This document shows, piece by piece, positions 1 through 56,995 of a stretch of DNA of 64,000 nucleotides. Below the pieces are notes generated by a model. It saw only the letters and a program-made list of their open reading frames with translations, was not told the origin of the DNA and did no database searches. Origin of the DNA: Eledone cirrhosa (lineage: Eukaryota); assembly GCA_964016885.1 (NCBI GenBank), contig OZ024740.1, positions 339,140,001 through 339,204,000 of the forward strand, written 5' to 3'. Within the stretch, counting starts at the first letter, position 1. Each line of letters opens with the position of its first letter. A program made the translations under genes and the position numbers.

Positions 1-1550
1 GGTTCACCTTACATATGATACATTTCCTATTGGTACAGTGGGTTTTCTTAAAAGGGTAGGTTTTGCTGATCAGGGATGTTATGGTGGTTCCTGGCTTTTC
101 TACCACCTTTATTTTTAAGTGGGTCTTTCTCAGGGCCTTTCTACACTGGTTAGCTAATTTCCCTCCAGGGGTGGCGTCCACAAACATGACACTCTGATAT
201 CTCTGGTTGTCGTACCATGATGTGGCCTTCCCTATCTTATGTCTAGCCCTATCTAAGCTATTCCATGATTTGCTCCTGTATAATGGGCAAATACCTTTCA
301 TGTCCAGTTCTATGAGGGTCTTATACTTTTCCATGGCTCCTTCGTATACTCTGACTCTGTCTCTTTGTTTGTAGCCAGAGAACTGCATGCGGTTGATGAA
401 GTGTTGGATGTGTCTTTCCATTTCTGTTGGGTCGCACATGCTGGACACATTCTTCATCACTCGTACCAAATCTGCGATCAGAATATTAAACTTAGCACTA
501 CTGGACATTGCTGAGTTTTTGAGTATCAGGTATTTGGAGGCCATGGGTTTAGCATAGTGTGAGTGGAGAATTTGGGCTCTCTCGTCTATAGTGTTAATCC
601 AGAGTTCTGTGTCTAATACAGGTAGTCTATTGTTAGGGTGTTTGGAAGGGAAGTCGATAGTTACAGTTATACTCTGGTGTATGGAATTAGCTATCTGCTG
701 GATGCTTTCCATCGTGCTACGTTCTAAATCAAACTTGTTAGTGCTCTCTAGTGGGGGTGTTCTTATAACTATATTGATATCGTCTACATAACGAGAGTAC
801 ATGATGAGGTCTATGGAGCTTTCATTAAGGAGATCTTTAAGTCTCCTTTCCCACCATACCATGAAAAGGTTGGCAACATCACCAACTATGCTGACGCCGA
901 TGGCTGCTCCCTCATTTTGGGTGTAGATTTTCTCATTGAACTTAAATATGTGGCCCTTTAGGGTAGTTTTGATACTAGCCCCTATTGCATGTGCGACCAT
1001 TTTTCTTACCTGATCAGTGTTTTGGGGGGTCCGTATAGCTTTGGTCCACCCAATCCACCTTCCCATGGGAGTCTTTTTTGCCATTGAGGTTATGGTAGGG
1101 GGTCTACCTCTTATAGGTCTTCTAGGGCAGAAACATCTAAGGTCATGGCTGTCTAGGTAGTCAGTGTCGTAGGTAAGTCTAAGTAGGAGGCCCAGTTCGT
1201 CTGTGTCGACGTCGCAGAATTCCACCTCACTCTCAATGATCATCTCCACACCTCTTTTCCCAGCAAAATCAATGTTAATGGATGGGTACAGTGACACCAC
1301 ATCCATGCTGCCTATTATGCAGTTGGATAGGCTCCTGTTTTTTGTTGCAGTCACTGATTCTGCTGAGGAGGTCCACTGTACTTTCACATACATCTGGGGA
1401 CATCTTAATTATGGGGCGTATAACCATTGAGAGGAAGTAGGAGATCCTGTAGTTGCTAGCTATATTAGCTCCGCATACGGGTCTTGTTGGTGGTCCTGTT
1501 ATCGGGTCGTCGACTGTCTTGAGGTCTTTGCATACAAGGGTGGTATGCCA
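1..1550 (-). mobile_element. Penelope-like element, RT-thumb-linker coding region, 5'-truncated, runs off the window start
   Basis: Manual translation: GIPPLY..KD.K..GPPTRPVCGA, MDVVSLYPSI (motif A), YTQNEGAAIG (B'), YSRYVDDI (C), SVMFVDATPGGKLA..CTNRKCIIC. One frame from ~1340 to 1; +1 shift in a T6 run at ~1340; 7-nt deletion at ~1530. Confidence 0.92.
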
Positions 1551-2700
1551 ACAACTTCCAGGCGTCTAACAATGGCATACCACCCTTGTATGGGCTCCGC
1601 AAAGACCACAAGACGCTGAGAAAGACCCACTTAAAAATAAAGGCGGTAGAAAAGCCAGGAACCACCATAAAATCCCTGATCAGCAAAACCTACCCTTTTA
1701 AGAAAACCCACTGTACCAATAGGAAATGTATCATATGTAAGGTGAACCCCCGGATAAACTTAAAACTAGAAACGTAGTCTATAGCATAAGATGTACAGAG
1801 GGTACTTGCAGAAACATGACAACAACATACATAGGTGAGACAGCTCGTAGCATAGGTGAAAGGATAGACCAACACTGGGGGGAACTAAAAGGACGAAAAA
1901 ACGGGTCAGTACTATACGAACATACTAGACAACAACATGACGGTAACATAGACAACATAGAAATTAGAATAATATCTAAACATAGGAATGACCCAGCAGA
2001 TAGGCAAATCAGAGAGGCCCAGTGAAATAGAAATTAGAAGACCAAAGATAAACAGAAAGAATGAGTGGAACAACAACAACACCCAAACAAACAACACTGA
2101 CCTAAGAGAAGTATAAATAAGTAAATAAAATAAAATAAAATAAAATAAGATAAATAAATACATACACAAGCACAATAACAACAAGCACATAAACACACAC
2201 TAGTCACCCAGCAGACACAACACTATACACACTAGTCACACAGCACACATAACACTATACCCACACGCAAACGCATGCGCAAGGAAGACAAAATAAAATA
2301 AACAAACAAGCAAATAAATAAATAAATATATAGACAGACTGAATAAAAAATGGCGTAGACATACAACACAACAGGAGGAAATATATAACACCACTGACGA
2401 TGTTGCAGATGTGCAACGAAAGATTTATGTAAATTATGTAAACTATATATATGTGTTTGTGTCTATATTGTATCTGTATCATTTTTGACCGTCGGTCAGT
2501 CAATGGCAACATTGAGGACCGAGTAAGTTAGATCGCAGATATAAAAGACAGCGAGAAGCGAAAACCAACCAAACAGTGAGTGTGTTCTGTTATTAATCTC
2601 TGGCAATATTACGCAAATATGACCCTCCCCAAGTATAACAATATCTGTTTCGACACACGATTTCATATAAAAAACCTCGCTAACCTAATTCATCGCCGCT
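1551..2700 (+). mobile_element. Inverted partner copy of the same PLE: internally deleted, GIY-YIG endonuclease remnant, 3' UTR and pseudo-LTR
   Basis: 1617-1748 is the reverse complement of 1-133. Encodes NVVYSIRC..TYIGETARSIGERIDQH..SVLYEH..DRQIREA with frameshifts. Ends in MTLPKYNNICFDTRF.. directly before (TA)n. Confidence 0.9.
2388..2430 (+). ncRNA. Degenerate minimal hammerhead motif in the PLE 3' region
   Basis: CTGACGA-T-GTTGCA-GATG-TGCAAC-GAAA-GATT-TA; stem I is weak. Confidence 0.5.
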
Positions 2701-3420
2701 ATATATATATAAATATATATATATATATATATATATATATATATATATATATATATATATATATATATATATATATATAAATATATATAAATATAAATAT
2801 ATAAATATATATATATAAATATATATATATAAATATATATATATAAATATATATATATATAAATATATATATATATAAACATGCTACTCGTTCATATTAC
2901 CCACTCTACTACCCTAAATATTGAGTAATTTGGTGTATTATGGTCCACTTGGGTCCTTACCACATTTCCTTAATTATATATATATATATAAATATATAAA
3001 TATATATAAATATATATATATATATATATATATATATATATATATATATATATATATATATATATATATACATATATATATATAAATGTATATAAATATA
3101 TATATATATATATATATATATAAATGTATATAAATATATATATATATATATAAATATATAAATGCATATAAATATATATATATATATATATATATAAATA
3201 TATATATATATATATAAATGTATATAAATATATATATATATATATATAAATGTATATAAATATATATATATATATAAATATATATATATATATATATATA
3301 AATGTTTATAAATATATATATATATATATATATATGTATATATATATATATATATATATATATATATATATATATATATATATATATATATATATATATA
3401 TATATATATATATATATACA
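2700..3420. repeat. (TA)n microsatellite with a ~95-bp unique insert at ~2880-2975
   Basis: Direct inspection. Confidence 0.97.
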
Positions 3421-3496
3421 TAGAGAGAGAGAGAGCTAGATAGTTATATACACATATAATAAATATATAAAATGTATATATATATATGTATATACA

Positions 3497-54581: not shown

Positions 54582-56178
54582 TATATATATTATATATATA
54601 TATATATATATATATATATATTATATATATATATATATATATATATATTATATATAATATATATATTATATATAATATATATATATATATATATATAATA
54701 TATATATATATAATATATATATATATATATATATATATATCATGTATATATAATATATATATATATATATACAATATATATATATATATATATAATATAT
54801 ATATATATATATATAATATATATATATATATATATAATATATATATATATATGTAATATATATATATATATATATAATATATATATATATATATATAATA
54901 TATATATATATATATATATTATATATATATATAATATATATATATAATATATATATATAATATATATATATATAATATATATATATATATATAATATATA
55001 TATATATATATATATAATATATATATATAATATATATATAATATATATATATATTATATATATATATAATATATATATATAATATATATATATATATTAT
55101 ATATATATATAATATATATATATATATATAATATATATATATAATATATATATATATAATATATATATATATATATAATATATATATATATATATATAAT
55201 ATATATATATATAATATATATATATATATATATAATATATATATATATAATATATATATAATATATATATATATATATAATATATATATATATAATATAT
55301 ATATATAATATATATATAATATATATATATAATATATATATATATATATATATATAATATATATATATATAATATATATATATATATATATAATATATAT
55401 ATATATAATATATATATATATAATATATATATATATAATATATATATATATAATATATATATATATAATATATATATATATATAATATATATATATATAA
55501 TATATATATATATATAATATATATATATATAATATATATATATATAATATATATATATATATAATATATATATATATAATATATATATATATATAATATA
55601 TATATATATAATATATATATATATAATATATATATATATATAATATATATATATATAATATATATATATATAATATATATATATATATAATATATATATA
55701 TATAATATATATATATAATATATATATATAATATATATATATAATATATATATATAATATATATATATAATATATATATATAATATATATATATATATAT
55801 ACATATATATATATATAATATATATATATATATATATATATAATATATATATATATATAATATATATATATAATATATATATATATATATACATATATAT
55901 ATATATAATATATATATATATATATATATATAATATATATATATATATATATATATATATATATATATAATATATATATATAATATATATATATATATAT
56001 ATATATATATATATATATATATAATATATATATATATAATATATATATATATATATATATATATAATATATATATATAATATATATATATATATAATATA
56101 TATATATAATATATATATATATATAATATATATATATAATATATATATATATATAATATATATATATATATATATATA
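54582..56178. repeat. (TA)n tract punctuated by TAA
   Basis: Direct inspection. Confidence 0.97.
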
Positions 56179-56411
56179 CGACAAAAAACACGCAGTCCAC
56201 GCTGTAAATGTGGCCGTGTAGGCAACACGGTAAAAACCTCCCAGCCCCACACTGTAAATGTGGTTGGTGTTAGGAAGGGCATCCAGCTGTAGAAAACCCG
56301 CCAGACAGTCCTATGCGAGCAAGACAACCACTCTTGCCTCAAGTGGGAAAACCCCCGTCCAAACCCATGCAAGCGTGGAACACGGACGCTAAACCTGATG
56401 ATGATGATGAT
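56179..56411 (+). mobile_element. SINE 3' part with (GAT)n tail; relatives at ~58870-59112 and ~63850-64000
   Basis: GTGGTTGGTGTTAGGAAGGGCATCCAGCTGTAGAAA..CCCATGCAAGCGTGGAA..GATGATGAT. Confidence 0.75.
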
Positions 56412-56587
56412 AATATATATATATAATATATATATATATATATATATATATATATATATATATATATAATATATATATAATATATATATAATATATATAT
56501 AATATATATAATATATAATATATATATATATATATAATATATATATATAATATATATATATATATATATATAATATATATATATATA

Positions 56588-56995
56588 CAATATTAAATAA
56601 ATGGAAACTATATTTATAAAACCATATTTATTTCATTATATATATTTCGGGGATATCATATTAATAATATGCTATGCCTTCCTCAGACAAAATACAATAT
56701 AAACAGTTTTATAGATAAATAGATATATAATATATAATATATATATATATAATATATATATAATATATATATATATATATATATATAATATATATATATA
56801 TATATTGTATTTTGTCTGAAGAGGGCATACCATATTTTTATCCCTGAAATATATATAATGAAATAAATATGGTTTTATAAATGTAGTTTCCATTTGTTTA
56901 ATATCGTAAAATACTCCAAAACTTGTTGAGTGCTTTTATATCAGTTATAAAATATTTACTCGTTGCAACCCAACAATTTTAAATAAAACTTTTGC
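56588..56995. mobile_element. Second locus of the 6278-6735 HHR family: two divergent arms separated by TA
   Basis: Left arm 56588-56724 (minus HHR); right arm 56803-56995 with CTGAAGA-GGG..CCT-GAAA. Confidence 0.85.

What the first reader, a model, noticed from the sequence alone, without database searches (positions are those of the whole stretch)
1..56995. Nine insertions share one geometry: inverted arms with both 3' ends pointing outward into microsatellite
Seen: junctions at ~1550, 6459-6465, 7480, 10305, 12662, 22061, 41103, 48914 and 56724-56803. Each has a minus-sense arm on the left and a plus-sense arm on the right, judged from ORF or HHR polarity. Both arms carry the same 3' sequence, unlike the non-overlapping arms of L1 twin priming. 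Known: inverted pseudo-LTRs occur in PLEs. Inference: (TA)n is self-complementary, so both ends of a break present the same primer. Each end could prime cDNA on an RNA 3' region, and the two cDNAs then join by microhomology (TCA at 7477-7479; a shared C at 10305).
Basis: partly seen in the sequence, partly recalled or inferred. Interest (0 to 1): 0.78.

Follow-up and report, generated by a model that had tools for sequence, protein, structure and literature searches.

The report
Two-ended priming in Penelope-like insertions
These back-to-back jumping-gene copies are a known Penelope-like pattern, but across hundreds of copies in this genome the two halves almost always end at two different fixed points, share sequence variants and often carry a likely RNA-cap mark, which suggests that both ends of a DNA break likely copy the same kind of RNA at once and are then joined.

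Summary
The geometry is real. Eight of the nine sites are joined head-to-head arms of Penelope-like elements (PLEs) or a retrozyme in (TA)n. The ninth has 83 bp of TA between arms that differ by 8%. In four families, neighbouring copies are divergent 95 times and convergent twice. This layout, with a one-sided tail, is a published PLE hallmark.

What the genome adds: in 158 of 162 two-armed loci from five families, one arm ends at an inner site and the other 25-160 nt further out. None has two inner ends. Either arm can be the longer. Arms share haplotypes (7/258 differences versus 29.5% between loci). In one family, 33 of 42 arms ending at the predicted transcription start carry an extra G that neither template nor partner arm explains (likely cap-derived).

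This fits both break ends priming cDNA on capped sense RNA at two distinct start sites, then end-joining. It argues against the published antisense self-priming model. 'Same primer because TA is palindromic' does not explain the pairing, TA dependence is untested in practice, and junction microhomology is mostly 0-2 nt.

The parts
1..1551 (-). J1 long arm: PLE RT-to-EN coding region, no tail; continues about 890 bp left of the window to (TA)n
   Evidence: (RVT_1 E=0.0022, under cut-off)
1546..2700 (+). J1 short arm: 6-nt overlap at 1546-1551, internal gap near 1610, EN end, hammerhead at 2394, tail about 2642-2700
6281..6458 (-). J2 no-tail arm (Hydra-like PLE 3' end)
6459..6732 (+). J2 tail arm; starts 1 nt after an Inr-like site; hammerhead at 6548; tail 6644-6732; blunt join
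6971..7479 (-). J3 tail arm of the 312-bp hammerhead tandem (retrozyme-like); ends at unit position 226
7480..8921 (+). J3 no-tail arm, 4.6 units; ends at about unit position 191-200
10240..10304 (-). J4 no-tail arm; runs to the predicted transcription start
10305..10434 (+). J4 tail arm; hammerhead core at 10305; tail 10364-10434; first C probably shared with a cap-derived base
10793..12666 (-). J5 long arm with C-terminal GIY-YIG; tail 10793-10828
12662..13102 (+). J5 short no-tail arm; 5-nt overlap at 12662-12666
17669..22061 (-). J6 long no-tail arm with Hydra-like RT-EN ORF (19734-21911); (CT)n run at its start site
22062..22361 (+). J6 short arm; hammerhead at 22117; 160-nt tail 22200-22361
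40887..41104 (-). J7 tail arm; tail 40887-40951
41104..41254 (+). J7 no-tail arm; 1-nt overlap
46695..48913 (-). J8 left arm; hammerhead at 46881; 100-nt extension 46695-46796; 47439-48913 not verified as element sequence
48914..49561 (+). J8 right arm; hammerhead at 49477
56591..56720 (-). J9 left arm (J2 family, no tail), followed by 83 bp of (TA)n
56804..56995 (+). J9 right arm (J2 family, tail, more diverged); possibly a separate insertion

Best explanation
These are head-to-head insertions of Penelope-like elements and a retrozyme in which, likely, both 3' ends of an endonuclease cut in (TA)n prime reverse transcription on capped sense RNA, one end at an inner start site and the other at an outer start site 25-160 nt downstream, and the two cDNAs are likely then end-joined. 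Shown by the sequence: one tail end plus one no-tail end, arm lengths that are free of each other, shared variants between arms, inner ends piled up at a predicted transcription start, an extra G there, and joins with 0-2 nt overlap or small inserts. Inferred: a double-strand cut, priming by both ends, an asymmetric (probably dimeric) complex, and NHEJ/MMEJ-type joining. Open: whether one RNA is copied twice with strand displacement, or two RNAs from one source locus are used (about even). TA gives both ends 1-5 nt of pairing with UA-containing start sites, but this is likely a help and not the cause.
For: Tail/no-tail pairing: 312-bp family 29 of 30; J4 40 of 41, counting two internally deleted tails as tails, plus 35 of 35 new places after reading two rows by eye; J2 32 of 33; J7 16 of 17; J6 6 of 6. 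Not nested: the tail is on the longer arm in 14 of 29; in the non-tandem J2 family it is long 9, short 10, equal 1 of 20, often by more than 1 kb. Shared variants: 7/258 versus 29.5%; 0.48% versus 1.63%; 0.79 versus 2.03 differences; 0 of 5000 permutations reach the observed value in each case. Only 7 of 130 rare variants are shared, which argues against wholesale conversion. J4 inner ends cluster 30 nt after a TATA box. There, 86 of the first 100 of 2,094 hits have G where the template has C. After removing partner-explained cases it is 33 G of 42, and TA-joined ends give G 20, A 4, seamless T 55 of 79. Seven loci show G on both arms. In vitro, a PLE protein nicks and extends both strands, starts at two internal RNA sites that define the tail, and is predicted to dimerise (PMC11167929). 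An extra G marks the cap in L1 insertions (PMC11702581).
Against: No RNA data confirm the start site or the cap. In J4, part of the G signal can come from the partner arm: 18 of 51 G cases were partner-explained or ambiguous. In J2 the G signal is weaker (32 of 100; 39 are one recurrent partner join). In vitro there was no strand difference in start-site use, so the asymmetry has no biochemical support yet. Two tail/tail loci exist (L044; L261, which is not joined). Some junctions far from the start site are near-symmetric and fit fold-back as well (J1 27 nt, L244, L246). Samples come mostly from the start of one contig or from best hits, and a few loci are duplicates or repeat the same junction (L164/166, L144/145, L162/165, L056/060, L380/381, L389/390).
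Confidence: 0.72

Rival explanations
1. One reading: because (TA)n is self-complementary, both ends are the same primer; each independently primes an RNA 3' region and the cDNAs join by microhomology.
For: Nearly all ends sit in TA (27 of 29 loci on both sides; only 20 genome-wide J4 tail ends abut CA/TG-type runs). Start sites contain UA. Overlap of 2 nt or more is enriched about twofold.
Against: Independent choice predicts at most 50% tail/no-tail; 158 of 162 were seen. Arms share haplotypes. The same layout occurs with ordinary target duplications outside microsatellites (PMC3846280). Most joins have 0-1 nt overlap or inserts.
Confidence: 0.1
2. One strand folds back and primes on itself (cDNA snap-back, or self-priming of an antisense RNA as proposed in PMC3846280); the tail comes from endonuclease resolution (PMC8557442).
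For: Explains shared variants, near-perfect palindromes and a one-sided tail. J1 (6-nt stem, 21-nt loop) and about 5 of 38 J4 joins fit the geometry.
Against: Fold-back needs one arm to lie within the other. In 10 of 20 long J2 pairs the tail is on the short arm, while the long arm reaches far further 5'. Tail-only partner arms of 18-56 nt occur. An extra G on sense 5' ends, sometimes on both arms with a single base between them, fits capped sense RNA rather than an antisense template.
Confidence: 0.08
3. Two separate insertions, or a DNA-level copy of one arm, later made alike by gene conversion; or a few palindromic master copies spread as units.
For: J9 looks like two events. Some junctions recur (J2 3811/3819 type, J7 window junction equals L262, L144/L145).
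Against: Rare variants are mostly private to one arm (123 of 130). 33 distinct junction types among 38 J4 loci. The recurrent J2 junction occurs with the tail on either arm. Separate insertions would not give 95:2 orientation or the pairing rule.
Confidence: 0.07
4. Long-read fold-back or assembly artefact.
For: The window has an N gap (54382-54581) and long, noisy TA arrays. No read-level confirmation of a window junction was obtained.
Against: Fold-back reads mirror the ends and the flanks. Here the ends differ by a fixed family-specific tail. Flanks are mirrored in 1 of 29 loci, at only 74% identity, and 2 of 95 share 10 nt or more of complex flank.
Confidence: 0.02

Closest known systems
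Inverted 5'-truncated copy plus one-sided tail of EN+ PLEs (Craig et al. 2021, PMC8557442 Fig. 2; Arkhipova et al. 2013, PMC3846280)
   Same: Head-to-head inverted copy at the 5' end, partial tandems (pLTR), tail at one end, hammerhead in the pLTR, (TA)n targeting.
   Different: The passages I saw describe the tail as optional or 'often at only one end', 30-40 bp long, and explain inversion by antisense self-priming or endonuclease resolution. Here the pairing is near-obligate, tails are 25-160 nt, arms are not nested and ends carry a cap-type G.
PAc Poseidon element in vitro (Frangieh et al. 2024, PMC11167929)
   Same: Both strands cut and extended, AT-rich target, two internal RT start sites that define the tail, predicted dimer.
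   Different: The main text I read does not link this to inverted insertions and reports no strand preference for start site. The genome here shows the two sites are split between the two ends.
L1 twin priming (as described in PMC11702581)
   Same: Both ends of one cut extended by RT and then joined by NHEJ/MMEJ; extra G at full-length 5' ends.
   Different: In L1 the second primer anneals internally at variable places and the arms barely overlap. Here both start sites are fixed, close together near the 3' end, and the arms overlap widely; there is no poly(A).
Hydra clade PLEs (J2, J4, J6) and non-LTR retrozymes (J3)
   Same: C-terminal EN with CxCX5C linker and CxxC/CxH motifs (J2, J6), TA targets; tandem units of about 300 nt, each with a type I hammerhead (J3).
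   Different: No phylogeny was run; J4 is linked only by visible ORF similarity. The retrozyme shows the same two-ended signature as the autonomous PLEs, which supports PLE-driven mobilisation (proposed in 10.64898/2026.07.22.740005).

Membership tests
EN+ Penelope-like elements | RT plus GIY-YIG endonuclease ORF | tested here: met
   J5 GIY-YIG above cut-off, J1 RVT_1 weak. J2 and J4 family ORFs seen. J6 ORF had no Pfam hit but shows RT and EN motifs by eye.
EN+ Penelope-like elements | Partial tandems forming pLTRs | tested here: met
   J2 unit of about 4 kb with internal pLTR in 5 loci; J4 pLTR runs into the ORF in L075 and L089.
EN+ Penelope-like elements | Hammerhead motif in the pLTR | tested here: met
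   7 of 9 plus arms by motif scan; none found in J5 or J7; none among the 150 Rfam rows listed.
EN+ Penelope-like elements | 5' truncation, inverted copy, one-sided tail | tested here: met
EN+ Penelope-like elements | RT phylogeny within PLEs | not tested
   No reference PLE set was held.
Hydra clade (J2, J6) | C-terminal EN, CxCX5C linker, CxxC and CxH motifs, TA targets | tested here: met
   Motifs read by eye in translations against the description in PMC8557442.
Non-LTR retrozyme (J3) | Tandem units, each with a type I hammerhead, no ORF | tested here: met
   312-bp period, 4.6 copies; hammerhead core; 40 places scored of 699 candidates.
Non-LTR retrozyme (J3) | Self-cleavage and circular RNA | not testable with these tools
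   No RNA run was laid.
L1-type twin priming | Non-overlapping arms, variable internal second priming site, poly(A) | tested here: not met
   Arms overlap and both outer ends are at fixed sites; a minority of J4 loci have non-overlapping tail-only arms.
Fold-back / antisense self-priming model | One arm contained in the other | tested here: not met
   20 non-TA-flanked J4 ends genome-wide, 12 independent, 10 two-armed, only L320 without TA at either end.

The most novel reading that the evidence does not exclude
The default PLE integration route is concerted double priming: one dimeric complex holds one capped RNA, hands its inner start site to one end of the cut and its outer start site to the other, and the outer RT displaces the inner cDNA. 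The pLTR inversion, the one-sided tail and the junction palindromes would then all be outcomes of one reaction, shared by Hydra-like and Neptune-like PLEs and retrozymes. RT stutter at the start site might also feed the flanking microsatellites.
Probability: 0.4. Interest if true: 0.8.

Novelty: new variant of a known kind. Interest (0 to 1): 0.62.

Why it matters
How PLEs, the closest retroelement relatives of telomerase, form their inverted and tailed insertions is named as an open question in PMC8557442. The pairing rule, non-nested arms and cap-type G discriminate between models, contradict the published antisense self-priming proposal for these families, and give yes/no predictions for the existing PAc in vitro system. 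They also give a rule for finding the true ends of PLEs and retrozymes, which have thousands of copies per family in this genome (8,218 exact hits for one J4 30-mer).

Tried and rejected
Rfam scan: listed rows were only microsatellite and hairpin noise. Reads: no RNA holder listed. Laying contigs of 4 runs on J1 showed the family in related samples and fixed the J1 join. The 'opposite strand' joints there are simply the intact element, and no listed piece bridged the window's own junction, so read confirmation remains open. No genome-wide count of tail/tail pairs was obtained; the pairing numbers come from samples. The GIY-YIG search for a family with non-TA targets gave mostly J5/J7-like elements in TA and one decayed other fragment. 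The vote-based junction caller failed on palindrome-rich families (J4, J7, L259); those values were not used. One search's 312-family overlaps were distorted by haplotype mismatches and were replaced. Rows left out of the 312 pairing count: 10 of 40 places (8 single-armed, L051 cut by another insertion, L057 with a 29-bp second arm). J6 versus J1 proteins show no BLASTP similarity. The idea that outer arms stall at the inner site was inconclusive because very short partner arms are hard to detect. Earlier scan notes: none found. No complex or structure prediction was run. Literature searches found no paper proposing paired start-site priming or a cap G for PLEs. [quoted passage not shown]
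Full report
Setting. The window lies in a 3.0-Gb animal genome and is a patchwork of long (TA)n arrays and retroelement pieces.

Observation. After masking TA, self-BLAST shows inverted arms at all nine sites. A hammerhead core lies on the plus arm in 7 of 9. J5 is oriented by its GIY-YIG ORF, and J7 by homology to J5 and by GIY-YIG loci ending in J7 sequence. So the left arm is minus-sense and the right arm plus-sense, as stated. The corrections concern J1 (join at 1546-1551), J9 (TA spacer, arms 7/89 different) and the two cited microhomologies. 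The main correction is that in every site one arm has a tail the other lacks.

Orientation. Among the first 100 genome hits of an exact body motif, neighbours within 5 kb were divergent/convergent 26/2 (J4), 33/0 (J2), 21/0 (J7) and 15/0 (J6, counted). One convergent case that I read (L092) is two insertions facing across TA. This test is weak on mechanism, since any target-primed scheme leaves the 3' ends outside. Exact motifs put 30-66 of 100 hits in such pairs, which is a lower bound.

What is known. Craig et al. 2021 (PMC8557442, passages) describe an inverted 5'-truncated copy at the 5' end, a 30-40-bp tail often at one end only, and TA bias in Naiad and Hydra elements; they call the mechanism undefined. 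Arkhipova et al. 2013 (PMC3846280, passages and Discussion) report head-to-head as the commonest form, also with 9-10-bp target duplications in non-repeat sites, and propose self-priming on an antisense template. Frangieh et al. 2024 (PMC11167929, main text parts 1-2 of 4) show a PLE protein cutting and extending both strands and starting at two internal RNA sites that bound the tail. The geometry is therefore an already known PLE feature.

Pairing of ends. In the 312-bp family, 30 of 40 places had two complete arms: 29 had one end at unit position about 200 and the other at 224-232, and one had two long ends. J4: 38 of 41 clear, two more with internally deleted tails, one intermediate; 16 of these were picked by a tail motif, but 13 of them also hold the body motif. 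A further 35 new J4 places were all tail/no-tail after reading two rows by eye. J2: 32 of 33, one interrupted. J7: 16 of 17, the exception not joined. J6: 6 of 6. The total is 158 of 162, with no locus having two inner ends. For the first 127, p=1e-31 against one half. A few loci are duplicates, which does not change this.

Nesting. Fold-back needs one arm to lie within the other. The tail is on the longer arm in 14 of 29 tandem loci, and long 9, short 10, equal 1 in 20 long J2 pairs. In the window it is on the short arm in J1, J3 and J6. About 5 of 38 J4 joins fit tail-first fold-back. Against my reading, J1, L244 and L246 end within 30 nt of each other far from the start site, so fold-back or a shared broken RNA end may act in a minority.

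Shared template. Arms of one locus differ at 7 of 258 polymorphic site comparisons, against 29.5% between loci; J2 0.48% versus 1.63%; J4 0.79 versus 2.03 differences per 47 nt. No permutation of 5000 reached the observed value in any family. Rare variants are shared in 7 of 130 cases, and those sit in all units of both arms. This points to one RNA or one source locus; it cannot tell these two apart.

Inner ends and the extra G. J4 inner ends pile up at an A exactly 30 nt after a TATA box, and J2 ends at an Inr-like motif; the promoter labels are from my knowledge of Pol II consensus. Of the first 100 of 2,094 J4 ends at that A with non-templated neighbours, 86 have G where long copies have C. 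The hammerhead stem and the partner arm can also supply a G, so I fetched the first 60 places: 51 of 62 arms have G; 3 are stem-templated and 15 are the partner's own last base. Of the 42 arms whose neighbouring base comes from neither (two more non-G arms abut a partner directly), 33 are G. TA-joined ends give G 20, A 4, seamless T 55 of 79. J2 is weaker: G 32 of 100. An extra G is the cap signature in L1 (PMC11702581, passages). Seven loci have it on both arms, several with one base between them, which a fold-back cannot make.

Joins. In the 312-bp family, 5 of 31 have 2-3-nt inserts. Of the other 26, the overlap is 0 in 8, 1 in 8, 2-4 in 8, and 16-17 in 2; 2 nt or more is 38% versus 18% for random joins (p=0.013). 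Window values: J1 6, J2 0, J3 0, J4 0 (1 with the cap base), J5 5, J7 1; J6 and J8 could not be measured. This is end-joining with mild microhomology use.

TA dependence. Twenty J4 tail ends in the genome abut CA/TG-type runs; 8 are one captured fragment; 10 of the other 12 are two-armed, mostly in compound repeats, and L320 lacks TA at both ends. With the published non-repeat cases, TA symmetry is probably not required. It may help both ends pair 1-5 nt with UA-containing start sites (seen in the sequences).

Artefact. Mirror-image reads would give equal ends and mirrored flanks; neither is seen as a rule. Read-level confirmation of a window junction is still missing.

Verdict. The feature is real and known in outline. 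The genome supports paired priming at two fixed sites on capped sense RNA (0.72). I found no paper stating this in eight searches, but several older PLE papers were not available. Other papers seen: 10.64898/2026.07.22.740005 (part 1 of 5); PMC9977147 and PMC12910113 (passages; nothing on inversion).

Noticed in passing
window 17659-17672; L321-L349: In the J6 family the (CT)n at the inner start site is 4-35 units in 12 of 19 ends, but 2 units in all 5 copies where the site is internal (p=0.037). This could be RT stutter at initiation or later slippage next to TA.
   Followed up: partly
L233 (also L081, L322/L323 by eye): Short flank beyond the TA is mirrored on both sides (34 nt in L233); 2 of 95 by script. 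Possibly a rare effect of TA self-complementarity.
   Followed up: partly
L369, L375, L376, L388: J4 loci whose tail arm is only 18-56 nt and does not overlap the other arm, the L1-like non-overlapping case.
   Followed up: partly
L070:4665-5080 (just left of the window): Another head-to-head palindrome in TA with a one-sided extension, not in the finding.
   Followed up: no
window 41491-41704 and 37000-37137: Single-armed copies of the J7 and J4 families; the J4 copy has its 5' end in a short CT/TA run.
   Followed up: partly
window 29660-30540 and 40102-40702: Further hammerhead-bearing pieces ending in TA (cores at 30364 + and 40434 -); the second has a 44-bp inverted repeat.
   Followed up: no
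window 3500-4351: 424-bp tandem dimer between TA arrays, related to 44594-44787.
   Followed up: no
window 31596-35987: Decayed minus-strand LINE with AP endonuclease, RT and zf-RVT hits.
   Followed up: no
window 54007-54381 and 54382-54581: A further Hydra-like endonuclease end next to a 200-N assembly gap.
   Followed up: no
window 42698-42951 / 43396-43647: 254-bp direct repeats (98%) around a 440-bp spacer, between TA arrays; possibly a pLTR pair.
   Followed up: no
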